From Candidatus Chisholmbacteria bacterium (lineage in GTDB: Bacteria > Patescibacteriota > Microgenomatia > UBA1400 > Chisholmbacteraceae): a DNA stretch of 64,000 nucleotides. Positions 18,990 to 28,341 of this stretch are shown piece after piece. The translations under genes and the position numbers were made by a program. Position 1 is the first letter of the stretch, and each line of letters starts with the position of its first letter. The stretch covers positions 428,905 through 492,904 of the forward strand of contig CAVPHZ010000002.1 in assembly GCA_963704905.1 (NCBI GenBank), read 5' to 3'. The notes beneath the pieces are model-generated. The model did not search any database. It saw nothing but the letters and a program-made list of their open reading frames with translations, and was not told the origin of the DNA.

Positions 18990-20780
18990 CTACTTCTTGA
19001 TTCTCGCAGGCAAATAAATAACATCCCATGTCATAGGGTACTTACCGAGAATGTCTTCCATTTTGCCAGCTTCGATCGCTTGAAAAACCTTCCAGTTATG
19101 CTCGATCACATCTGGCAGTGATAAAAGCCCTGGTGTCTCCATCTGTAGTGTCACCATAATCTGTTGATTATTCATCGCCGGATCCAAAAACCAATTGATC
19201 ATATCCTGATACGTAATCGAGCTTCTCCTACCTATTGGTCGCCCAACATCATCATCCTCGAAAAACTGAATCCCATGTGCTTGACCTGGTTGATCCGCCA
19301 TGATCAATGGAAAAAAGAAAGAATCACCGCCGGGAGTTACCGTTTCACAGAGGACTTTGATGGTATTCTCATATGCAAAGTATGGCCAAGAGGCTATACC
19401 CCGAACTACGCACGAAAATCCTTTGTCACGAATATAACCTGTGTCACCTGTCACAATACTCTTCGACTCAAAATTCATATCATAATCAGCAAACCTCCCA
19501 AGCGTAGCAGGAACCATCTCTCCGTCTTCGTTCTGTGTAAACATGGGTTTTATTTGAGCCTCGTCTATAGGAACAAAAGACGAAGCAGGGAAAACATCAC
19601 AGTCATTAACCACCTTGCCCTCAAAGGTAAACTCTTGGCATACCTTCGCCGCTTTGGGAACAAAAGACTTCAGTTCCCCTGCACCGGTATCATATTCATA
19701 CACCGGCCGGTATCTGCCTTCTTGAAAGACCAGCGTCCTGCCGTTGATTTTCTCAACCCGGTCAGCTTGTTCTTCTGGTGTCTGCCAGGTTCCCATATCT
19801 CGATTCCAGAAAGACCATCTGCCGTCTTCACCCTCCTCAACAGCCTGCGCCTCCACCCACTGCCCTGGCTCTCCACCAGGTCCGTCAGGGTCAGCAAATC
19901 TCATCATTGGGTTGCCATTGGTATCAATCGCCACGTACCCATGGTCTATGGTGAGGATCGCAGTTGCTCCTTCGGGAGTCGGACCATACTCGGGAGTGAC
20001 TGTCGGCAACGGCATGAGTGTGGACGTACTCCTGGGTGTGCTGGTAAACCGCTGCACAGGGGTAGTGGTCAATGTGGGAACAACAGCCGGTTTCGTTGCA
20101 ATCTCCTCAGGTGTGAGTGCTTGTTGACAAGCCTGCAAAAACGCTGTGAAGGATGCGGTCAAAGGCACCAGCCACTTCCCCCCTCCGGATCCGTTTCCAT
20201 TGTCAGGAGTAGGTGATGATCCGCTGTCGGGAGAGTGAGTTGGGCCTTCGACAATCTGCTGGACACCTCCCGGTCCTCCGCTTGCTCCGCCGGCAAGCAG
20301 TGAGACAATCAGCAGGGTATTCATCGTCTTGACTGCCCAGCCGGGTAGCTCAATCAGTTCCCCGTTATCTTCTAGCGGAATGCCGGTTGCAGCATCACGG
20401 ATGACCAGCGCATCCCATTCCTGCGGTGAGACTCCGATATACTTGTCATAGGGGGTTCTTTGAGGCAGGTGAAATGGGTGTCCGTTCCCCAGCCGTTCCT
20501 TTGTCCTGGAAGGAAGGGATCCGAAACCCTGATGAGAAAGTGCGTCAGCAAAAGCCATAATTGGTGAATTGGCTGGAATTATACCAGAGTACTGGTCAGA
20601 GGAAATCACTACCGCAAATTGAAAAATCCAGACTATTTCGGTACTTGACGATAATCTTGAAAAAAACGGCGTTCTTTGAAACAGTAACCATACAAATCTA
20701 TTGATTTGCATCCATCCAGGCTTGCAGTGCATCTTCGGGGACAAATATCGATTCTGTATGAAAAACATTAGGTGTATCAA
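18990..20780 (-). CDS. paralog-array membrane protein 3; N-terminus diverged/truncated, start uncertain
   Basis: Same architecture as paralog 2 from YSGIIPANSPIMAFADAL onward. Upstream of nt ~20591 the sequence departs from the other copies, and the longest ORF start (20780) overlaps the 3' end of paralog 4; alternative Met starts lie at 20732 and 20711. Confidence 0.5.
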   Translation of the reverse strand: MIHLMFFIQNRYLSPKMHCKPGWMQINRFVWLLFQRTPFFSRLSSSTEIVWIFQFAVVISSDQYSGIIPANSPIMAFADALSHQGFGSLPSRTKERLGNGHPFHLPQRTPYDKYIGVSPQEWDALVIRDAATGIPLEDNGELIELPGWAVKTMNTLLIVSLLAGGASGGPGGVQQIVEGPTHSPDSGSSPTPDNGNGSGGGKWLVPLTASFTAFLQACQQALTPEEIATKPAVVPTLTTTPVQRFTSTPRSTSTLMPLPTVTPEYGPTPEGATAILTIDHGYVAIDTNGNPMMRFADPDGPGGEPGQWVEAQAVEEGEDGRWSFWNRDMGTWQTPEEQADRVEKINGRTLVFQEGRYRPVYEYDTGAGELKSFVPKAAKVCQEFTFEGKVVNDCDVFPASSFVPIDEAQIKPMFTQNEDGEMVPATLGRFADYDMNFESKSIVTGDTGYIRDKGFSCVVRGIASWPYFAYENTIKVLCETVTPGGDSFFFPLIMADQPGQAHGIQFFEDDDVGRPIGRRSSITYQDMINWFLDPAMNNQQIMVTLQMETPGLLSLPDVIEHNWKVFQAIEAGKMEDILGKYPMTWDVIYLPARIKK

Positions 20781-22230
20781 TACTCATTGGAACTCCCTGC
20801 TCCAAAACTTCGAGAAACGGATGAAAATAGTCCATACTGGGATCAACTTCTGCCCTCTGATTATCCTCATCAGACCAGCGCAATGTGATGATAATCTGCT
20901 GATTTCTCATAAACTCTGACTTGAAAAACTCTATCATCTCTAGCGAATTTAATGGAGTGAATTGAGCATTCTCTATAGGAATGGCAGCATGTGGGGAGAG
21001 ATTTTCCTTGATGCTCTCTCTCGGTACAGAAAATATCCACCAGAGAGGGCTTGAGTTTTCTATGGAGTTGAACGCTTCAGGATCACTATCCTCAAGTGAC
21101 CAGTCAAGTTTGGAGTCTGCTATAGTAACAAGAGCTGATTGCAGTCCGCCATCCAAACGCAGCAGACATTCACTCTTGATAGTGTTTGGGCCATCTAAAT
21201 ATTCCCATGGTACCCACTCTCCTGTCACAACACAGGCAACTGATTTGTATACACTTACAATACCTTGGTACTCAATAACCTTGTCCAATTCAGGGATGTG
21301 CCCGTCAGCAAGCGTGACTGACTGCCCGTTTCGCATCATCTGCAGAGTGCTGATAGTGGCGTCATCAAGCGGTTCGCGGAAATCTGGTAAGCCGGCACAA
21401 TCGTCAAGATAGCCAAGTACTGCGTCGTTTCGTTGACACACCCGCTTCACTCCAACCGCATTGGGAACCTCACTGGTCATCACAGATACAGGAGTATTCT
21501 TGGGTGTTGGCTCAAGAGTAGGCTTAGGGAACAGTGTGGTTATTGGAGTAAGCCTGGGAGTAATCCGTGGTGTGCTGGTAAACCGCTGCACAGGGGTAGT
21601 GGTCAATGTGGGAACAACAGCCGGTTTCGTTGCAATCTCCTCAGGTGTGAGTGCTTGTTGACAAGCCTGCAAAAACGCTGTGAAGGATGCGGTCAAAGGC
21701 ACCAGCCACTTCCCCCCTCCGGATCCGTTTCCATTGTCAGGAGTAGGTGATGATCCACTGTCGGGAGAGTGAGTTGGGCCTTCGACAATCTGCTGGACAC
21801 CTCCCGGTCCTCCGCTTGCTCCGCCGGCAAGCAGTGAGACAATCAGCAGGGTATTCATCGTCTTGACTGCCCAGCCGGGTAGCTCAATCAGTTCCCCGTT
21901 ATCTTCTAGCGGAATGCCGGTTGCAGCATCACGGATGACCAGCGCATCCCATTCCTGCGGTGAGACTCCGATATACTTGTCATAGGGGGTTCTTTGAGGC
22001 AGGTGAAATGGGTGTCCGTTCCCCAGCCGTTCCTTTGTCCTGGAAGGAAGGGATCCGAAACCCTGATGAGAAAGTGCGTCAGCAAAAGCCATAATTGGTG
22101 AATTGGCTGGAATTATACCAGAGTAACAATCAGAATGATGAAAACTTTTCAAAAAGAGCACCGCTTCCGCAATACTGCCAGGAAAAACGAAACCAGAGCC
22201 ATCTGGTGTTTTGTCCTCCAGGGGTGTCAA
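20698..22230 (-). CDS. paralog-array membrane protein 4 (510 aa) with divergent C-terminal domain
   Basis: N-terminal 215 aa are identical to paralog 2, including TM and linker. The C-terminal domain is diverged but keeps the MRNQQI motif. Its upstream region is a copy of that of paralog 2. Confidence 0.6.
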   Translation of the reverse strand: MTPLEDKTPDGSGFVFPGSIAEAVLFLKSFHHSDCYSGIIPANSPIMAFADALSHQGFGSLPSRTKERLGNGHPFHLPQRTPYDKYIGVSPQEWDALVIRDAATGIPLEDNGELIELPGWAVKTMNTLLIVSLLAGGASGGPGGVQQIVEGPTHSPDSGSSPTPDNGNGSGGGKWLVPLTASFTAFLQACQQALTPEEIATKPAVVPTLTTTPVQRFTSTPRITPRLTPITTLFPKPTLEPTPKNTPVSVMTSEVPNAVGVKRVCQRNDAVLGYLDDCAGLPDFREPLDDATISTLQMMRNGQSVTLADGHIPELDKVIEYQGIVSVYKSVACVVTGEWVPWEYLDGPNTIKSECLLRLDGGLQSALVTIADSKLDWSLEDSDPEAFNSIENSSPLWWIFSVPRESIKENLSPHAAIPIENAQFTPLNSLEMIEFFKSEFMRNQQIIITLRWSDEDNQRAEVDPSMDYFHPFLEVLEQGVPMSIDTPNVFHTESIFVPEDALQAWMDANQ

Positions 22231-22751
22231 AACAACCGATAAAACCTGTCTGGAACGGGTCGGTTCATGAATGATGGAAATCGCAGGGTTAAATCGATGA
22301 TCATATCAATCGCCCTGCTCACCATCAGCAGTGCTACATTATTTGTTTGAAAACAAAAAGTCTGTCCCCTGACTCTCCAAGTGGAACTCAAGTGAGGTAA
22401 AAAACTGATAGTAGTAAAAAGCGGAAAGAAGCACCATGCGTTATACCGCTGCATCATTCAATCTGGAATACTCGTGAACCCGTTGAATCAGCCAAATGAA
22501 GTTATCCTGCGGTAGTGTCTGGCTCTTCTTTGGAGGAGTCTTGCTCCCCAGCCAAAAAAGAAACTCCTTGACGAAGATGTCATCAACCTTCCAACCGGTC
22601 TCTCGCTTGAAGAGTCTAACCAAGTCTGCCTTTGATTGCCATGCTAAAAAGGACGCGGCTCTTCCCATGTGCAGTCTATGTACCACAGAAACTTGACCGT
22701 TTGCAATGCATACTTGATATGAACAGATGACCATAATGGTAAAATCGAAAA

Positions 22752-23742
22752 ATGAGGAAAAATCAACCGGCGGATTTTCCAAACCGAATTCAAAGAGCTG
22801 ATCCTCTCGGAATTCGCAGTACAACATCCAAAGCTGTCAAAAACCTAACGCTCGTGGATTTTGATCAGGACAAAATCGTGCAATTGGCAGCGGAACTGAA
22901 ATCACGGATTGATAAAAAATTGCTCCTCACCGATAGTCAGTTCGGATCCGGAGAAATAACACCCCAGCATATCTTCGTCCTGGATGTCGTCAACCATTGC
23001 TTCTGGGCAAAAAAAGGAGAAAAAAAATGGCAGGTTGAATATCCGAAAGAGGTTATCACCGACGGATGGGAAGCGCTTATATCGTAGTTTTACAAGAGCA
23101 ATTCATGAAAAAGTGCCTATCCTCAATGCAGCGTATCTCGAAACAATAACTACAAGAGACGTGCGTCACCTGTTCCTAAGCGCCAATCACACCTCTATAC
23201 CCCTCCTTAATGAACGAGTGAAAAACCTCAGAGAAGCAGGATATATCTTAAAAACTCGATTCGATGCTGACATCATCAACCTGCTAAAACTATCAAAGTT
23301 CGATGCCGCCCAAATTATCAAAAATATTGTCAAGAACTTCCCTTCTTTTCAGGATGTTTCCAAGCTAAACGGCAAATCGGTGAATTTCTATAAACGGGCA
23401 CAAATATTTGCCTATGACGTATCTATGCTCAAGCGGATAAGCATAACAAATCTGGAAGTGCTTACCGTGTTCGCAGACTACAAGGTGCCCCAGCTGCTGC
23501 GAGCACTTGGAGCAATACGGTACGCCTCATCGCTTGCCGATAAGGTTGACAGCTACCAGCTACTTCCGAAAGGAAGCCGCGAAGAAACGGAAATCCGCGT
23601 GGCCACCGTCGTTGTCGGGGAACGCCTTTCCGAAATCCTCGGTGTCTCCGCCTCGCTCGTGGATAATGCACTATGGAAACTTGCAAAAGATCTGAAAGAG
23701 AATAATCAGCCCTACCACCGGACCCTTACGACAAGTTACTAA
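22752..23742 (+). pseudogene. queuosine-salvage protein Qng1/DUF2419 homolog interrupted by a frameshift
   Basis: Two overlapping ORFs (22752..23087 frame 0; 22984..23742 frame 1) together carry Qng1 hallmarks: VVNHCFW...GWEAL (first frame) then TRAIHEKVPILNAAYLETIT, NFYKRAQIFAYDV and VFADYKVPQLLRALGAIRY (second frame). The frame switch lies around 23075-23090. An A-rich run (gggcaaaaaaaggagaaaaaaaatgg, 23005-23030) lies just upstream. Confidence 0.55.
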
Positions 23743-24296
23743 TCCTCTTCTTGCATCTCTCCCTCGATAAGAATTCGGATAAACTCTGATCGGGAAAGAC
23801 CCTTCTTCTTGACTACCTGAGTAAGATATTCATCAATCTCAGGTGAAATAAAGAAGGTAAACCGCCGATTTGAAATACTTTCCACTTCATCAAGAGTCCA
23901 ATCAAGCACCTCGGGAAGACTCTGCAGGTCATACTCACTCTTGATAAGTCTCTTCGAGTGAAATGGATTAATAAAAATCGGATCATAGCCGTGTTGGTGT
24001 AAAAGCACAACCGGCTTTCCCCTGCTAAGAAGAAGCCCTGCTTCAAATCCGACATGCAGGCTGGAGGGATGCGAGCCTTCAACGAACACCGCATCACACT
24101 CTCGAGTGAACACGGTCCACTCTTTGTACCAATCGGTAAGTTTTTTTTGAGAAACATCATGGTTCTCAGGAAGGTGGCGCGAAAGGACGGTCGTAAATAC
24201 CTCGTGACCTTGCTTCTCCAAATGGTCAACAATCGTTCGATAGACCTTCCCGAACTGATCAAAATGGGTTATTGAAGCGGTAAAATAGATCTTCAT
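23739..24296 (-). CDS. nucleoside 2-deoxyribosyltransferase-like (SLOG/Rossmann) domain fused to a C-terminal ribbon-helix-helix DNA-binding domain
   Basis: N-terminus MKIYFTASITHF...GHEVF and ECDAVFVEGSHPSSLHVGFEAGLLLSRGKPVVLL fit the NDT-like family pattern. C-terminus FTFFISPEIDEYLTQVVKKKGLSRSEFIRILIE is a CopG/Arc-type RHH. Confidence 0.5.
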   Translation of the reverse strand: MKIYFTASITHFDQFGKVYRTIVDHLEKQGHEVFTTVLSRHLPENHDVSQKKLTDWYKEWTVFTRECDAVFVEGSHPSSLHVGFEAGLLLSRGKPVVLLHQHGYDPIFINPFHSKRLIKSEYDLQSLPEVLDWTLDEVESISNRRFTFFISPEIDEYLTQVVKKKGLSRSEFIRILIEGEMQEED

Positions 24297-24356
24297 ATCG
24301 TAGCAATGATCTCTTCTGGAAAAGTGATGTTACCATGAGATAAGCATGCTCATAAT

Positions 24357-25022
24357 TTATTTCTCTGCAACCAGGCTAAACCATTTCGGCAAACGTGCCT
24401 CAGTATGTGGACTGGTTTCCGACCAGACGAGATGAAACCCCGCTGCTTCAACCATAGTAACGATTTCCTGCTTACGAAAAAGCGTCAAATACCGTGGACC
24501 GCCGATGTCCTGTACAACATAGACCCGTTTTTTCCCAAGCTTAAGTGAAAGATAAAGAACCCCTCCGGGCTTTAAAAATATCCGGAAATCTCGAAGAGCA
24601 CCTGGAAGATCTGAACGGGGAATATAGGTCAATGCATCGGCATAGACCGCATCAAAGCTTTCCGGTAGGAATGGTAATGAACGCGGGTCAAGGTGAACGA
24701 ACATGCCGTTAGGAACCCGTTTTAGTGCCTCGGTAAGCAAACCGTAAGAAAAGCTGGTTCCCAGGCAGCGAAAACCTTCTTCGGTAAGCAACGTATAATC
24801 CCGTCCGCTTTGACAACCGACAATGAGTACCTTACATCCTTTTTGGGCATACTTGGTAAATGGCTTGATATTATACTTTTTTACCTCTTGCACAGTCTTT
24901 GCACGCCACTCCCATTTCTCTGCATACGTATCGGCAAACCGGTCATAGGTCTGCATCGTGACAAACACCTGGGTCTCGGACAGATCATTCTCTGAAAGCA
25001 AGCGGTACGGCGTCTTTCTCAT
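24357..25022 (-). CDS. class I SAM-dependent methyltransferase
   Basis: KVLIVGCQSGRDYTLL (motif I) ... DAVYADALTYIP ... LKPGGVLYL (post-I/II motifs). Start is placed at the internal Met (MRKTPYRLL). Confidence 0.65.
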   Translation of the reverse strand: MRKTPYRLLSENDLSETQVFVTMQTYDRFADTYAEKWEWRAKTVQEVKKYNIKPFTKYAQKGCKVLIVGCQSGRDYTLLTEEGFRCLGTSFSYGLLTEALKRVPNGMFVHLDPRSLPFLPESFDAVYADALTYIPRSDLPGALRDFRIFLKPGGVLYLSLKLGKKRVYVVQDIGGPRYLTLFRKQEIVTMVEAAGFHLVWSETSPHTEARLPKWFSLVAEK

Positions 25023-25106
25023 TTCTATTAGCTGCCTAATATTGATAAATAGCACCGGAAGTATAACAAATCCCCCCGAACACTCAAGACATATCAGATT
25101 CATACA

Positions 25107-25904
25107 TCAGTGCAAAGTCAACCGGGAACGGAAGATTAGAAACCCAAAACGAAGAAGATCTAACTGACGCTTCAATCTCCATGGCTGCCTGACTAACCGA
25201 TACATCCAATCCAGTCCTAGCCTGGTCATAAATTGAGGAGGCTTGAGGCTTGGATCAACGATCATATCAATCGCCCCGCCCACAACCATGCCAACCTTGA
25301 TATCCAGCTGTTTGAGATTGTCATAAAGCCACTTCTCCTGCCATGGAGCCCCATAGCCGACAAATAAAAGATCCGGCTTAAATCGATTAATCTGGCGAAC
25401 TATCCTCTCATTCTCCTCTTCAGAGTAATCGCGAATATCCCAATGCCCCTCAATTCCTTTTATTTGAGCCATAATTCTTAAAGGTTCCGAACCTTTAAGA
25501 TCATACTGTAATTTTTTTGCTGCTTCCTGAGCAACACCCACTTTTCCCCCAACCAACATCACTCTCCAACCATTCTCTTTAGCACTGTCTATCAAGCTAT
25601 TCATGATTTCTTCGCCCGTCACTCTACCTAAAATGACAGGACCGGACCCTGTCAGTAAACGGCTCGCCCACACTAAGCCCACGCCATCGCAGAGTGCTAA
25701 CGATGCCTCATTCAAAATCGTGCGGAAACGCTCGTCCTTTTGCGCCATCATCACCTGTTCAGGATTCGGAGTCACTATCATCCGTTTCGCCTTTTGTTCG
25801 ATAAATTGCTCAATCGTCGCTAAAACTTCCCGCCTGGTAATCGCGGAGATATGGACACCGAGAATGGAAATAGATGGTTGAATCGAATGGTTTAATGTTG
25901 ACAT
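25107..25904 (-). CDS. WecB/TagA/CpsF-family glycosyltransferase (GT26)
   Basis: ILGVHISAIT...RMIVTPNPEQVMMAQKDERF...LALCDGVGLVWASRLL...FVGYGAPWQEKWLYDN...RLGLDWMYRLVRQPWRL matches the GT26 family signature. Confidence 0.7.
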   Translation of the reverse strand: MSTLNHSIQPSISILGVHISAITRREVLATIEQFIEQKAKRMIVTPNPEQVMMAQKDERFRTILNEASLALCDGVGLVWASRLLTGSGPVILGRVTGEEIMNSLIDSAKENGWRVMLVGGKVGVAQEAAKKLQYDLKGSEPLRIMAQIKGIEGHWDIRDYSEEENERIVRQINRFKPDLLFVGYGAPWQEKWLYDNLKQLDIKVGMVVGGAIDMIVDPSLKPPQFMTRLGLDWMYRLVRQPWRLKRQLDLLRFGFLIFRSRLTLH

Positions 25905-26092
25905 ACAAAACTGCTGACAAGAACCGAGAGTATATTATTATATAGTATAGATATATCTTATATTCTACGTAGTATTCTAAATTGAATAGCTTTACTACTC
26001 AAATCTAATCAGGTTCATAAGCCTGGTAAATCAAGTTGGGTAGGCAACTGATATGAGAGATATAACAAACTTATCCAGGATAGCAAAAAAAA
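25905..26092 (-). promoter_or_regulatory. AT-rich intergenic region, probable promoter for the GT26 gene
   Basis: 188-bp, very AT-rich spacer (tatattattatatagtatagatatatct...) between the GT4 and GT26 genes. No specific -35/-10 assignment attempted. Confidence 0.2.
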
Positions 26093-27286
26093 TCACTTCT
26101 CCTGACGAACAGCCGATTCAAATACCGAGAGTGTCGCTCTCGCCGTCCTCTCCCACGTGAACTGTTTCACTCGTCTCAGTCCTTTTTCAACCAAACCTTC
26201 TCTCAGCTCTTGGCTTGATAATACCAGTTTCATCGCTTCTGAAAGTTCATCAACCGACGTAGGTTCTACCAACAATCCCGCATTGCCAACAACCTCAGCC
26301 AAAGCTCCAGCTCTTGATGAAACAACCGGCGTTCTGGCTGCCATCGCCTCAAGGACAGGTAACCCGAATCCTTCTGTCAAACTAGGTTGAACATAGAGCT
26401 CAGCTTCTTGAAAAAGCACTGGTAGGTGTTCATCCTCAACAAATCCAATGAACTTAACCTGATCCGCAACCCCAAGTTTTCCAGGCATTCGTAACACATC
26501 GTCATACATCCACCCCAACTTCCCGGCAATCACCAGCGCTAGTGAGTCCAAATCGTCATGTTGAGTTTCCGATCGTGAACCTAAGTTCACGTTCCCGATA
26601 TCGGTCTTCGTTTCATGCTTCTTAAGCCGAGCAAATGCCTCAATCAGCCGAACCAAGTTCTTTCTCGGCTGAATCACCCCAACAAACAGCACATAAGGCG
26701 AAGTAATACCCAGGTCCTTATGCATTTTTCCTTTTTCCGCATGTGAAAGTTTCTTTCCAAATCGCTTGGCATCCACACCTTCGGAAACAACAGTAATTTT
26801 TTCAGACTCAGCACCAAGTCTTCGGATAAGATCATCCTTTGTAAACTGAGACACGGCAATCAGCTGGGAGGAATGATTCACCGCATACCGGGTTGAAGAG
26901 GTTAAATAATACTTCTGCGGCACTTTATAGTGCTCAGGCAGATACTCATACTCGAGTCCATGAATTGTTACAACGGTTGGCAAACCGCTTCTTCTCAACA
27001 CTGGCAACGTATGCGCCGGGACAAACAGCAAATCAAGATTATCCTTCCACGTGGCCAGTGCCAAACCGCCCTGCGTCCACAACCTCGGCCATCGAAGCTG
27101 TTTGACCCAAACATTCGGCCGACCTTTAAAGGTCTCACCCTGCAAGATAGGCTGTCTACGCACATAGACAATATATTTATTCTTCCGATCAATCTTGAGA
27201 AGCGCTCGAAGAAGTTGATACGAATAATTCTCTGTTCCGCTCCTCTTTTCTTCAAACGCCCTTGATGCATCAAAACCGATGGTCAT
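26093..27286 (-). CDS. glycosyltransferase family 4 (GT-B, group 1)
   Basis: C-terminal EGFGLPVLEAMAARTPVVSS is the GT4 E-X7-E region. 397 aa. Confidence 0.7.
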   Translation of the reverse strand: MTIGFDASRAFEEKRSGTENYSYQLLRALLKIDRKNKYIVYVRRQPILQGETFKGRPNVWVKQLRWPRLWTQGGLALATWKDNLDLLFVPAHTLPVLRRSGLPTVVTIHGLEYEYLPEHYKVPQKYYLTSSTRYAVNHSSQLIAVSQFTKDDLIRRLGAESEKITVVSEGVDAKRFGKKLSHAEKGKMHKDLGITSPYVLFVGVIQPRKNLVRLIEAFARLKKHETKTDIGNVNLGSRSETQHDDLDSLALVIAGKLGWMYDDVLRMPGKLGVADQVKFIGFVEDEHLPVLFQEAELYVQPSLTEGFGLPVLEAMAARTPVVSSRAGALAEVVGNAGLLVEPTSVDELSEAMKLVLSSQELREGLVEKGLRRVKQFTWERTARATLSVFESAVRQEK

Positions 27287-27312
27287 ACGCCAACTATATC
27301 AGGTAAGTAAAA

Positions 27313-28341
27313 TCATCTTGGTAACTCCAAAAGATATCCTCGCTTACGCATCGTCTGTAATGTCTCGTTTGGTAGGCCAAACGACACCAGCTTATATCGC
27401 ACCCGCTGAACCGCTTTATTCAAAGCCCAAAGCGAAACAAGCTCTCCCTCACCCCAGAGAAAATCAGCCACTTCATCAAAGGGTACAATATCCCCCTCCT
27501 TTGATAAAAACAATTTCAGCAGACCCATCTCTTGTCTAGACCATGTTGCTTCAACTTTCTTCCCTTTAACATACACCGCATCCTTAACTACCTCGAGAAT
27601 TTTATCTTCATAAACAACTTCCAGCTTCTTCAGATAGGCTGTAGACTGTCTTCGCAGCTTCGGATCAACTCGTGTCAAAGCCTGGAGAGTCCTTTTGTAT
27701 TGAGGAAATAGTCTTTTCATCTCCCGATTTGTCATCAAAAAATCAACAATCGCTTCTGCCTCACTCCAGCGCAATTTATGTTCTTTCCGGTGTTGAAAAA
27801 GCAATGCGCTCATAACTACCTCCGCCAGATTTCCCAGATCAGCATCGCTTCTCAGATAACAGATTAACTTCTGTCCATACGATGAACCTAAAACCGAAAA
27901 CGAAGAAATCGTTCCGTATCTGGTAAGGCGCACTTCGACCGCATCAATGACTCGTAATACATCTGGAAAAGCTCGCTCAACAGTAAGCCAAATAACCGAT
28001 TCTCTTTGACTCCACAACCTTTTCCGCGCTGACAGTTGTGCAGTATGCAGACCCTGTCTATTCCCAAAAAGCTCCCTCATTTCTTCCCGTAATCGATGAG
28101 GCGACCGTATCGGAAAGTTTAGTTGTAACTTCACCACTCTTCCCCAATAATCCTCAATATCAGAATACGCAAGTTGCGGTAAAACCACCTCCTGTGGACT
28201 ACCTCTGTGCTGAAGTGTGGGTAAAATCACAAATCCCTTGCGTTTATAAAAACCATTCGCAATAGACAGTGAAGTAAACAAAATCCGTTCGATTTCAGTA
28301 TTTGGACTTGATACAAACTCTATCCTGGGTAAATTGTCCAT
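27313..28341 (-). CDS. transcriptional regulator with C-terminal OmpR/PhoB-type winged-helix domain and an unknown N-terminal domain (no receiver)
   Basis: C-terminal ~95 aa (ATWSRQEMGLLKLFLSKEGDIVPFDEVADFLWGEG...LNKAVQRVRYKL...TMRKRGYLLE) fit the Trans_reg_C pattern. The N-terminal 240 aa have no CheY-like D-D-K motifs. Confidence 0.5.
   Translation of the reverse strand: MDNLPRIEFVSSPNTEIERILFTSLSIANGFYKRKGFVILPTLQHRGSPQEVVLPQLAYSDIEDYWGRVVKLQLNFPIRSPHRLREEMRELFGNRQGLHTAQLSARKRLWSQRESVIWLTVERAFPDVLRVIDAVEVRLTRYGTISSFSVLGSSYGQKLICYLRSDADLGNLAEVVMSALLFQHRKEHKLRWSEAEAIVDFLMTNREMKRLFPQYKRTLQALTRVDPKLRRQSTAYLKKLEVVYEDKILEVVKDAVYVKGKKVEATWSRQEMGLLKLFLSKEGDIVPFDEVADFLWGEGELVSLWALNKAVQRVRYKLVSFGLPNETLQTMRKRGYLLELPR

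What the first reader, a model, noticed from the sequence alone, without database searches (positions are those of the whole stretch)
23739..24296. Nucleoside-deoxyribosyltransferase-like (SLOG-type Rossmann) domain fused to a ribbon-helix-helix DNA-binding domain
The N-terminal 140 aa follow the NDT-like family pattern (MKIYFTAS..., acidic EGSHPSSLHVGFEAGLL...GKPVVLL region). The last ~45 aa form a textbook RHH (beta-strand FTFFISPEID, helices EYLTQVVKKKGLSRSEFIRILIE). Fusing a nucleotide- or nucleoside-binding SLOG domain to a DNA-binding module predicts a ligand-sensing transcription factor. SLOG/NDT-like domains are also recurrent in nucleotide-signalling and conflict systems. It is a single gene here, adjacent to the frameshifted Qng1 gene and a glycosylation cluster.
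Basis: partly seen in the sequence, partly recalled or inferred. Interest (0 to 1): 0.55.

Follow-up and report, generated by a model that had tools for sequence, protein, structure and literature searches.

The report
Nucleotide-sensor-like RHH regulator beside Qng1
A small gene of an uncultivated (CPR/Patescibacteria) bacterium fuses a domain resembling the nucleotide-cleaving enzyme DNPH1 to a DNA-binding ribbon-helix-helix domain; it comes with its own conserved palindromic DNA site beside promoters, and in this lineage sits in a fixed three-gene module with a queuosine-salvage enzyme, so it is most likely an undescribed nucleotide-responsive gene switch.

Summary
ORF 23739-24296 (-) encodes a 185-aa protein with an N-terminal DNPH1/Rcl-like domain (profile E 6e-15; Foldseek TM 0.7-0.8) and a C-terminal CopG-type ribbon-helix-helix (RHH). 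The fusion is the standard architecture of a large unnamed family: 575 representatives at 50% clustering, named records Patescibacteria, none in phages or plasmids.

Three findings are new. (1) The gene is not solitary. In its clade (>=46% identity) the module MTase -> NDT-RHH <- Qng1 recurs in 18-19 of 24 unique loci with different outer flanks. (2) A 17-bp palindrome, TKCATAY-N4-TATGMA, tracks the gene family-wide: 18 exact sites against 0.13 expected. It always abuts a TTGNNN-17/18-TANNNT promoter firing in the gene's direction. The window's only copy (22707-22723) lies between Qng1 and a conserved small ORF; a direct-repeat variant abuts the MTase-operon promoter. (3) The N-domain keeps DNPH1's Tyr, nucleophile Glu and phosphate Ser but has Trp in place of the acid/base Asp, and 37% of family representatives have lost the Glu.

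Best reading: a ligand-responsive RHH regulator with an enzyme-derived nucleotide sensor. 'SLOG-type', 'single gene' and a conflict-system role are not supported. The ligand is unknown.

The parts
23739..24296 (-). NDT-RHH gene, 185 aa (whole ORF including stop)
   Evidence: ORF list and sequence; 45 full-length homologues; 575 family representatives
23874..24296 (-). N-terminal DNPH1/Rcl-like (NDT-superfamily) domain, residues 1-141. Y4, S78 and E85 correspond to human DNPH1 Y24, S98 and E104. W56 and W60 occupy the positions of I76 and D80.
   Evidence: Profile vs PDB E 6e-15; Foldseek DNPH1/MilB/BcmB; residue conservation
23739..23873 (-). C-terminal ribbon-helix-helix domain, residues 142-185. 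Strand R145-F146-T147-F148-F149-I150, helix 152-165, helix 169-184 with the S-R-S-E N-cap.
   Evidence: RHH_1/RepB; RHH_3/RHH_1 in 25 of 41 members; CopG top PDB hit; AF2 secondary structure
24357..25022 (-). Class I SAM-dependent methyltransferase, first gene of the operon. The probable true start is M28 at 25022; the mechanical ORF starts at 25103.
   Evidence: Methyltransf_25/11. Homologues align from residue 25-28 onward. Conserved directly upstream of NDT-RHH in 18 of 24 unique clade-A loci.
25060..25087 (-). Predicted sigma-70-type promoter of the MTase-NDT/RHH operon: TTGAGT, 16 nt, TATACT, with TG extension
   Evidence: Promoter scan
25088..25104 (-). Direct-repeat operator-like element TATGAAtctgaTATGTC abutting the -35 box (half-sites in 11-bp register)
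   Evidence: Only exact hit in the window. The same arrangement TATGAAttcggTATGAC lies upstream of the L022 MTase. Weaker evidence than the palindrome.
22707..22723 (.). Perfect palindromic operator candidate TGCATAC-TTGA-TATGAA, the only copy in the 64-kb window
   Evidence: Family-wide enrichment of 18 exact sites vs 0.13 expected. Fixed orientation and promoter context.
22677..22706 (-). Promoter abutted by the palindrome: -35 TTGCAA (22706-22701), 18-nt spacer with TG, -10 TACATA (22682-22677), reading toward the small ORF
   Evidence: Read from the sequence. The same geometry holds at 21-25 of 31 sites in other loci. Not called by the consensus scan because the last base of the -10 box is A.
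22441..22668 (-). Conserved small ORF (75 aa, no known domain) divergent from Qng1 and downstream of the operator-promoter
   Evidence: 48% identity to the L022 counterpart, E 6e-24; also present in L036; no Pfam hit
22752..23742 (+). Qng1 (Q_salvage, queuosine/Q-5'-monophosphate N-glycosylase), convergent with NDT-RHH with overlapping stop codons. Split here into two ORFs (22752-23087 and 22984-23742). Its -35 region falls inside the palindrome (extended -10 TGgTAAAAT at 22737-22745).
   Evidence: Pfam Q_salvage E 9e-55 and 1e-6; tblastn frame change; conserved neighbour in 19 of 24 clade-A loci; intact 329-aa copy in another assembly

Best explanation
The gene encodes a one-component transcription regulator. 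Shown or strongly supported: its C-terminal ribbon-helix-helix is a CopG-type DNA-binding domain, and a specific 17-bp palindrome (arms T[G/T]CATAY and TATG[A/C]A, centres about 11 bp apart) travels with the gene throughout the family and always abuts the -35 box of a promoter. Inferred: two RHH dimers, held together by dimerisation of the DNPH1-like domains, bind the two arms on one face of the DNA. Occupancy of positions about -52 to -36 most likely represses by occluding the -35 box. In this window that would control two places. One is the divergent Qng1 / small-ORF promoters, through the perfect palindrome at 22707-22723. The other is its own MTase-NDT/RHH operon, through the direct-repeat variant at 25088-25104. 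Also inferred: the N-terminal domain is an enzyme-derived sensor that binds a nucleoside 5'-monophosphate-like ligand. The ligand would sit in a pocket next to the subunit interface, as in DNPH1, and so change DNA affinity. The phosphate-binding Ser, the Tyr and the Glu are kept, while the acid/base Asp is replaced by Trp. The conserved linkage to Qng1 makes a queuosine-related or other modified nucleotide from nucleic-acid turnover the most attractive ligand for this clade. That last step is speculation.
For: Fold and family of both domains.

The fusion is the family norm.

Operator:
- 18 exact TKCATAYNNNNTATGMA sites in 498 kb of 81 unique loci, against 0.13 +/- 0.34 (maximum 1) in 100 dinucleotide shuffles. 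All 18 are followed by TTG on the strand of the NDT-RHH gene.
- With a relaxed pattern there are 31 sites. 21 are followed at once by TTG (background 0.025) and 25 by TANNNT 16-18 nt further on (background 0.058). Only 1 of 22 opposite-strand matches is followed by TTG.
- The site sits upstream of Qng1 or of the MTase in clade A. In clade B and in clade-A loci that lack MTase and Qng1, it sits 10-130 nt downstream of the NDT-RHH stop. So NDT-RHH is the only DNA-binding protein constantly linked to it.
- The window has one exact copy, at the Qng1 / small-ORF divergent region.
- The MTase promoter found by an independent scan is abutted by a half-site repeat.

Sensor rather than obligatory enzyme:
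- 46 of 125 family representatives have L/I or another residue at the nucleophile position, usually together with Tyr4->Phe, yet they keep the fold and the RHH.
- The position of DNPH1 D80 is W in clade A and L in clade B.
- The phosphate Ser is invariant in all fetched loci.
- DNPH1 residue roles and its dimeric pocket are taken from PMC10603095 and PMC12751057.

R145 and T147 align with CopG R4 and T6; that these contact bases in CopG is my own knowledge.
Against: No experiment and no multimer or DNA-complex model: DNA binding to this palindrome rests on co-location only. Covariation between strand residues and operator arms is loose. A clade-B subgroup ('DLRFTFFIT') has only a single GATGCAT arm next to the TTGA box. 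In clade-A loci where the palindrome lies upstream of the MTase, no site lies upstream of Qng1, so control of Qng1 is not universal. The window clade retains Tyr, Glu and Ser, so catalysis is not excluded. Both Pfam hits of the window protein alone are below gathering scores. A site centred near -44 could also activate rather than repress. The ligand is unknown.
Confidence: 0.6

Rival explanations
1. Bifunctional enzyme-repressor (PutA/BirA-like logic). The N-domain is an active N-glycosidase that hydrolyses a modified (deoxy)nucleoside 5'-monophosphate, working alongside Qng1 and the methyltransferase in nucleotide salvage or pool sanitation. The RHH autoregulates the module according to substrate load.
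For: The window clade keeps Y4, S78 and E85, the counterparts of DNPH1 Y24, S98 and nucleophile E104. Tyr rather than Phe at position 4 is the deoxyribose-type signature in DNPH1 versus MilB (own knowledge; PMC10603095 discusses the MilB/DNPH1 differences). Two neighbours are enzymes, one of them an N-glycosylase acting on a nucleoside 5'-monophosphate.
Against: The acid/base Asp80 equivalent is Trp, in an alignment with high posterior probability. The second phosphate ligand S128' aligns with the invariant P106. 37% of family representatives lack the nucleophile altogether, so catalysis cannot be the family's common function.
Confidence: 0.2
2. The palindrome is the site of some other factor, or a promoter UP-like element. 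NDT-RHH binds elsewhere, or uses its RHH only to oligomerise an enzyme.
For: The link between protein and site is by co-location only. The site is AT-rich and lies where UP elements lie (-36 to -52). Protein-operator covariation is weak.
Against: The site is rare: one copy in the 64-kb window and 0.13 expected per 498 kb. It follows the NDT-RHH gene into three different gene contexts in which no other DNA-binding protein is constant. The strand residues R145, F146 and T/N147 and helix-2 R174 are 92-98% conserved family-wide, as expected for a conserved DNA target.
Confidence: 0.12
3. Toxin-antitoxin or anti-phage conflict module. The RHH would be an antitoxin-like DNA-binding part fused to a nucleotide-depleting NDT/TIR/SLOG-like effector.
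For: RHH domains are common in antitoxins. NDT-like, SLOG and TIR folds recur in nucleotide-centred conflict systems (own knowledge). Weak sub-threshold hits: SAVED4 at E 1.3e-3, and TIR-like and SLOG-cluster4 hits for P0059.
Against: No significant PADLOC hit. No relatives in viral contigs, phage or plasmid records. Neighbours are housekeeping genes (RNase P/YidC, ribosomal proteins, YchF) and salvage genes. There is no conserved partner toxin, and the HicAB pair in L001 is not conserved elsewhere.
Confidence: 0.03

Closest known systems
DNPH1 / Rcl (2'-deoxynucleoside 5'-phosphate N-hydrolase; NDT superfamily, with MilB and BcmB)
   Same: Same fold and clear sequence homology for residues 3-136. 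The Tyr (Y24/Y4), the nucleophile Glu (E104/E85), the phosphate Ser (S98/S78) and the D-x4-E motif are conserved.
   Different: The acid/base Asp80 is replaced by Trp60, base-stacking I76 by Trp56, and S128' by Pro106. A third of the family lacks the Glu. A DNA-binding domain is fused. Activity is untested.
CopG / Arc / MetJ ribbon-helix-helix repressors
   Same: beta-alpha-alpha pattern with an alternating polar/hydrophobic strand (R-F-T-F-F-I), a G-x-S-R-S-E helix-2 N-cap, and CopG as best PDB hit. The operator has two arms about one helical turn apart at a promoter -35 box, as in Arc and CopG (own knowledge).
   Different: The RHH is C-terminal to a 140-aa globular domain rather than standing alone or being N-terminal. 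The operator sequence is new. Binding has not been demonstrated.
NikR (RHH plus ligand-binding ACT-like domain)
   Same: An RHH regulator whose DNA affinity is set by a ligand-binding oligomerisation domain. NikR sequences are among the C-terminal profile's PDB hits. The E. coli NikR half-site GTATGA/TCATAC (own knowledge) resembles the arms found here.
   Different: The domain order is reversed. The sensor is a nucleotide-enzyme fold, not a metal-binding ACT-like domain. Arm spacing is 4 nt, not 16. The resemblance of half-sites may be coincidence.
Enzyme-derived metabolite-sensing regulators (PutA, BirA, NrtR Nudix-wHTH, B. subtilis PurR PRT-domain)
   Same: The same design logic: a metabolic-enzyme fold recruited as sensor, or sensor plus enzyme, for a DNA-binding domain that controls genes of the related pathway (own knowledge).
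   Different: A different sensor fold and a different DNA-binding fold. I found no description of a DNPH1/NDT-RHH regulator in the searchable literature.

Membership tests
NDT superfamily, DNPH1/Rcl-type NMP N-glycosidase | Flavodoxin-like alpha/beta fold of DNPH1/NDT | tested here: met
   AF2 model at pLDDT 84.9. Foldseek top 50 hits are DNPH1/Rcl, MilB and BcmB, E down to 2e-7, TM on target 0.65-0.81.
NDT superfamily, DNPH1/Rcl-type NMP N-glycosidase | Significant sequence match to the family | tested here: met
   Family profile vs DNPH1/Rcl chains, E 6e-15 to 4e-11 over residues 3-136. The window protein alone is below the Pfam gathering score (22 vs 28.8 bits). 33 of 41 members hit PF05014 at E<=0.01.
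NDT superfamily, DNPH1/Rcl-type NMP N-glycosidase | Catalytic nucleophile Glu (human E104) and Tyr24 | tested here: met
   E85 and Y4 are present in the window and in >=89% of clade A. Family-wide, E/D occurs in only 63% and Y in 69%.
NDT superfamily, DNPH1/Rcl-type NMP N-glycosidase | Acid/base Asp (human D80) | tested here: not met
   It aligns to W60 (W in 94% of clade A, L in 67% of clade B) in a high-posterior alignment. The role of D80 is from PMC10603095.
NDT superfamily, DNPH1/Rcl-type NMP N-glycosidase | 5'-phosphate ligands S98 and S128' (from the partner subunit) | tested here: inconclusive
   S98 corresponds to S78, which is invariant in all fetched loci. S128' aligns with the invariant P106.
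NDT superfamily, DNPH1/Rcl-type NMP N-glycosidase | N-glycosidase activity; homodimer | not testable with these tools
   Needs enzyme assays and SEC-MALS or a structure.
Ribbon-helix-helix (CopG/Arc/MetJ) DNA-binding domain | Sequence match to RHH families | tested here: met
   Window: RHH_1 E 3e-3 (17.9 bits, GA 20.5) and RepB-RCR_reg. Members: RHH_3 in 14 (best 5.5e-8) and RHH_1 in 11 of 41. The C-terminal profile's best PDB hit is CopG at E 0.008, followed by VapB, NikR and ORF56. PHROGs CopG-like hits.
Ribbon-helix-helix (CopG/Arc/MetJ) DNA-binding domain | beta-strand plus two helices forming an intertwined dimer | tested here: inconclusive
   The monomer model has an extended segment at 142-151 and helices 152-165 and 169-184 at high confidence. 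The strand pairing needs a dimer model, which was not available.
Ribbon-helix-helix (CopG/Arc/MetJ) DNA-binding domain | Cognate repeated or palindromic operator at a regulated promoter | tested here: met
   By comparative genomics only. Physical binding was not tested.
   No SLOG-clan family among the window protein's Pfam hits at E<=1. The only hit is a sub-threshold LDcluster4 match in the atypical relative P0059.
Type II toxin-antitoxin / anti-phage defence system | Match to known defence or TA components; a conserved toxin partner; mobile or defence-island context | tested here: not met
   PADLOC noise only. No viral, phage or plasmid relatives. Housekeeping and salvage neighbours.

The most novel reading that the evidence does not exclude
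The Qng1-linked clade is a protein-based (not riboswitch) sensor of a queuosine-derived or other 7-deazapurine / modified nucleoside 5'-monophosphate. It would switch on queuine salvage (Qng1), a partner methyltransferase and a small unknown protein when tRNA- or host-derived modified nucleotides are available. That would make it the first transcription factor for queuosine salvage, and the first use of a DNPH1 fold as a regulatory ligand sensor. The two clade-specific tryptophans (W56, W60) would form the base-stacking part of the pocket.
Probability: 0.2. Interest if true: 0.75.

Novelty: new variant of a known kind. Interest (0 to 1): 0.6.

Why it matters
If the model is right, three things follow.

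1. It defines a large, unnamed family of one-component regulators that appears specific to Patescibacteria. These organisms have few recognisable transcription factors and live on salvaged nucleotides. The predicted operator and promoter can be tested directly in vitro.

2. It shows a DNPH1/NDT nucleotide-hydrolase fold recruited as a regulatory sensor, with the loss of catalytic residues caught in progress across the family.

3. It gives a handle on how bacterial Qng1-type queuine salvage is controlled, and on two unknown partners: a methyltransferase and small proteins. The regulatory mechanism I know of for queuosine-precursor genes is the preQ1 riboswitch (review PMC11625349 listed, not read); no Rfam riboswitch matched this region.

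Databases currently label family members variously as 'CopG family', 'nucleoside 2-deoxyribosyltransferase' or 'hypothetical'.

Tried and rejected
- **NCBIfam:** only noise or sub-threshold RHH-type hits.
- **Single-sequence PDB search:** marginal (E 0.015). The profile search was needed.
- **Viral contigs, phage records and plasmid records:** no relatives.
- **PADLOC:** a 15.8-bit SAVED4 hit and a generic MTase 'mad2' hit, both treated as noise.
- **Rfam scan of 20500-27500 at E<=1:** only a spurious snoRNA hit and no preQ1 or other riboswitch. An RNA-element reading of the palindrome was dropped, also because the palindrome lies upstream of the -35 box of its promoter.
- **Neighbour clustering in the distant clade:** no common metabolic partner, only membrane proteins, a RecR-like protein, a VirD4-like ATPase and an L28-like protein.
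- **Single-arm search in the window (KATGNATTG):** 3 hits vs 7.2 expected, so no sign of a wider regulon within the 64 kb.
- **Strand-residue / operator-arm covariation:** only a loose trend, so not used as evidence.
- **MTase function:** only generic class I SAM-MTase matches and uncharacterised structures.
- **Literature:** no paper describing an NDT/DNPH1-RHH fusion and none on queuosine in Patescibacteria. A QueC-paralogue neighbourhood with a PfkB-NDT fusion is only tangential.
- **Apparent terminator-like leader upstream of the clade-B small ORF:** partly retracted, because in several loci the hairpin lies inside the small protein's own reading frame (my own reading of the sequences printed, not a tool translation).
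- **Dimer or DNA-complex structure prediction:** not possible with the tools.
Full report
**1. The observation**

Taken alone, the protein gives coherent but sub-threshold Pfam hits:
- Nuc_deoxyrib_tr over residues 3-101 (E 1.9e-4, 22 bits, GA 28.8).
- RHH_1 over 145-178 (E 3e-3).
- RepB-RCR_reg over 146-183.

Its best solved relative by sequence is DNPH1/Rcl at E about 0.015.

Homologues settle the matter:
- 45 full-length proteins at 30-60% identity come from Patescibacteria/Microgenomates metagenomes.
- An exhaustive HMMER search finds 575 representatives at 50% clustering (186 at E<=1e-10). Almost all are 180-200 aa and align over residues 1-183.
- A 41-sequence profile (A1) hits rat and human DNPH1/Rcl at E 6e-15 to 5e-12 over residues 3-136.
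- The AlphaFold2 model built on that alignment (pLDDT 84.9, pTM 0.72) retrieves DNPH1/Rcl, MilB and BcmB as its top Foldseek matches (E down to 2e-7, TM 0.65-0.81 on the target).

Evidence for the C-terminus:
- 14 of 41 members hit RHH_3 (best 5.5e-8), 11 hit RHH_1 and 4 hit RepB-RCR_reg.
- A profile of the last ~45 residues from 44 diverse members (A2) has the CopG repressor as best PDB hit (E 0.008). The next hits are almost all RHH proteins: VapB antitoxins, a CopG-family regulator, ORF56 and NikR.
- The model shows an extended segment followed by two confident helices. This is what an RHH monomer looks like before the strand pairs in the dimer.

So both domains and their fusion are real and conserved.

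**2. Which branch of the NDT superfamily, and is it an enzyme?**

The matches are to the nucleoside-5'-monophosphate N-glycosidase branch, not to SLOG families. No SLOG hit appears at E<=1.

In human DNPH1, E104 is the covalent nucleophile and D80 the acid/base. Tyr24 contributes to catalysis. S98 and S128' (from the partner subunit) hold the phosphate, I29 and I76 sandwich the base, and the enzyme is a homodimer (PMC10603095; PMC12751057).

In the high-posterior alignment the correspondences are:
- Y4 = Y24, S78 = S98 and E85 = E104. These are conserved.
- W60 = D80, W56 = I76 and P106 = S128'. These are replaced.

Among the fetched loci, Y4, D68, E73, S75, P77, S78, G83, E85, K94, P95, P106 and Y122 are shared by both clades. 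W56 and W60 are specific to the window's clade; the distant clade has F and L there.

Across 125 family representatives anchored on K94-P95, the nucleophile position is E/D in 79 and mostly L/I in 46. Loss of the acid goes together with Tyr4->Phe: 19 of the 24 Phe-bearing representatives lack it.

A family that keeps the fold, the phosphate Ser and the DNA-binding domain, never has the acid/base, and often loses the nucleophile, looks like an enzyme fold turned into a ligand-binding module. The window's clade could still have residual or altered catalysis.

**3. Genomic context: a conserved module, not a solitary gene**

In Gottesmanbacteria contigs (51% identity) the gene is preceded by a 223-aa class I methyltransferase that overlaps it by 4 nt. 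It is followed by a convergent Q_salvage (Qng1) gene whose stop overlaps its own.

The same trio occurs in a Beckwithbacteria genome with entirely different outer flanks, YchF on one side and S6/SSB/S18 on the other. It also occurs in the window, with WecG/GT4 on one side and an unknown 510-aa protein on the other.

Over 101 fetched loci plus the window:
- 18 of 24 unique loci at >=45% identity have the MTase directly upstream, and 19 have Qng1 (adjacent in most; 1 kb away in L007; on the other side in L030).
- Of 57 unique loci at 27-38% identity, none has Qng1 and one has an MTase.
- The distant clade has no common metabolic neighbour.

The window's MTase most likely starts at M28 (25022), because homologues align from there. 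The glycosyltransferase genes are not conserved neighbours. Qng1 releases queuine from queuosine or its monophosphates (PMC11130926; title of PMC9881137).

**4. A family-wide operator-promoter unit**

Inspection of the regions upstream of Qng1 in clade A showed a recurring gCAA-TKCATAY-N4-TATGMA motif.

Scanning all loci gave these results:
- The exact pattern occurs 18 times in 81 unique loci (498 kb), against 0.13 +/- 0.34 (maximum 1) in dinucleotide shuffles. All 18 copies are followed by TTG on the strand of the NDT-RHH gene.
- With a slightly relaxed pattern there are 31 such sites. 21 are followed at once by TTG (background 2.5%), and 25 have TANNNT 16-18 nt after that hexamer (background 5.8%). 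Of 22 matches read on the opposite strand, only one is followed by TTG.

So the palindrome abuts the -35 box of a sigma-70-type promoter that fires in the same direction as the NDT-RHH gene.

Its location changes with context:
- In clade A it is just beyond Qng1, that is, in the Qng1 upstream region: window, L001, L022, L026, L029, L035, L036, L037.
- Alternatively in clade A it is 77-215 nt upstream of the MTase: L007, L008/L028, L020, L024/25, L027.
- In clade B, and in clade-A loci lacking MTase and Qng1 (L011, L012, L019), it is 10-130 nt after the NDT-RHH stop.

What the promoter drives also varies:
- A conserved ~70-aa protein in the window, L022 and L036.
- A 92-109-aa protein in L001 and L029.
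- A short Trp/Arg-rich ORF followed by the MTase operon in L008, L020, L025 and L027.
- A small membrane protein in clade B.

The only DNA-binding protein constantly next to the site is NDT-RHH. Its strand and helix-2 residues (R145 92%, F146 92%, T/N147 95%, R174 98%) are among the most conserved in the family. This is the main new evidence that the protein is a sequence-specific regulator. It remains evidence by association.

**5. The window in detail**

The only exact palindrome in 64 kb is TGCATACTTGATATGAA at 22707-22723.

On the minus strand it is followed by TTGCAA (22706-22701), an 18-nt spacer containing TG, and TACATA (22682-22677). The ATG of the small conserved ORF (22668-22441) lies 8 nt further on.

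On the plus strand its right arm lies where the -35 region of Qng1's extended -10 promoter (TGgTAAAAT, 22737-22745; ATG at 22752) would be. Occupancy should therefore affect both divergent promoters.

Upstream of the MTase, an independent consensus scan finds TTGAGT-16-TATACT with a TG extension (25087-25060). Abutting its -35 box is TATGAAtctgaTATGTC (25104-25088), two half-sites in direct repeat. This is the only exact match to that pattern in the window, and it is mirrored by TATGAAttcggTATGAC in L022. This second site is weaker evidence, resting on two loci.

No Rfam family, including the preQ1 riboswitches, matches the region.

**6. Mechanism proposed**

Shown: domain identities; conservation of the fusion; conservation of the module; and enrichment, orientation and promoter context of the palindrome.

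Inferred:
- RHH dimers insert their two-stranded sheet (R145, T147 and F149, aligned with CopG R4, T6 and T8) into successive major grooves at the two arms. The arm centres are about 11 bp apart.
- The DNPH1-like domains dimerise and bridge the RHH dimers.
- A nucleoside-5'-monophosphate-like ligand, bound next to the subunit interface as in DNPH1, changes the geometry and hence operator affinity.
- The site's position (about -52 to -36 for the co-directional promoter, and over the -35 region of Qng1) suggests repression relieved, or imposed, by ligand.

Speculative: the ligand in the Qng1-linked clade is a queuosine-derived or other modified nucleotide.

**7. Alternatives**

- A bifunctional enzyme-repressor is the strongest rival, because Tyr, Glu and Ser are retained in this clade.
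- Another factor could bind the palindrome.
- A toxin-antitoxin or defence role is not supported.

**8. Comparison with the known, and novelty**

Ligand-controlled RHH regulators (NikR, MetJ, PutA) and enzyme-fold sensors (NrtR, PurR, BirA) are known from the literature (my own knowledge). DNPH1, MilB and NDT enzymes are well studied.

I found no description of a DNPH1/NDT-RHH regulator or of its operator, and no curated family model covers it. Databases name members inconsistently. A related NDT-HTH(XRE)-NDT protein (P0059) shows that this sensor fold has been joined to DNA-binding domains more than once.

I class it as a new variant of a known kind. Interest is moderate to fairly high, because it gives a concrete, testable regulator-operator pair in Patescibacteria and a possible regulatory link to queuine salvage.

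**9. Caveats**

- The metagenome loci were retrieved with a peptide pattern from the RHH strand (FTF[FY][IV]...), so they under-sample family members with N at position 147.
- The motif was first seen in the same data that were later scanned. The clade-B and MTase-upstream sites are independent of that first observation.
- Some record titles assign contigs to Gammaproteobacteria or Saccharibacteria; I did not verify the taxonomy.
- All regulatory conclusions are computational.

Noticed in passing
window 22752-23742 (+), frame change near 23070-23080: Qng1 (Q_salvage) is split into two overlapping ORFs by a frameshift that is not in a homopolymer run. An independent assembly (Logan ERR12037370) carries the identical NDT-RHH protein next to an intact 329-aa Q_salvage gene. 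The break is therefore strain- or assembly-specific rather than a feature of the lineage.
   Followed up: partly
window 22441-22668 (-): A conserved 75-aa ORF with no known domain, divergent from Qng1 and directly downstream of the operator-promoter. It is 48% identical to its L022 counterpart and is also present in L036. Both it and Qng1 appear leaderless, since their -10 boxes end 6-8 nt before the ATGs.
   Followed up: partly
L008, L020, L025, L027 (between the operator-promoter and the MTase); L026 (after Qng1): A short Trp/Arg-rich ORF (...PLFLRRWRWE...) is conserved in the 130-210-nt leader. It may be a leader peptide or a small protein of unknown role.
   Followed up: no
L016, L055, L076, L077, L079, L080, L086, L092, L094, L096, L099, downstream of NDT-RHH: In the distant clade the operator-promoter drives a small membrane protein of roughly 45-95 aa, depending on the locus and the start codon chosen, with a conserved W..L.L.EK..W..FLN.TIA motif. 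A GC-rich hairpin plus T-run lies in its leader (L055, L092) or, by my reading of the sequence, inside its 5' coding part (L076, L079, L099).
   Followed up: partly
L043, L048, L051, L073, L083: Two NDT-RHH paralogues sit in tandem, mostly in the subgroup with the strand sequence DVRFNFFIS.
   Followed up: no
protein P0059 (401 aa, from the representative search): A related architecture: two NDT-like domains flanking a weakly matching HTH_31 (XRE-type) domain (E 0.03, below the Pfam gathering score). If real, this is a second, independent fusion of this fold to a DNA-binding domain.
   Followed up: no
window 27313-28341 (-): A 342-aa protein whose only recognisable part is a C-terminal OmpR-type winged-helix domain (Trans_reg_C, residues 266-338). 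It has no receiver domain, and the N-terminal 260 aa are unassigned.
   Followed up: no
window 20698-22230 (-): A 510-aa ORF with a Pro/Thr/Gly/Ser-rich central region and no Pfam match, lying downstream of the small conserved ORF on the same strand.
   Followed up: no
window 24357-25103 (-): The mechanical MTase ORF starts at 25103, but homologues align only from residue 25-28. The predicted promoter (25087-25060) lies inside that N-terminal extension, so the real start is probably ATG 25022.
   Followed up: yes
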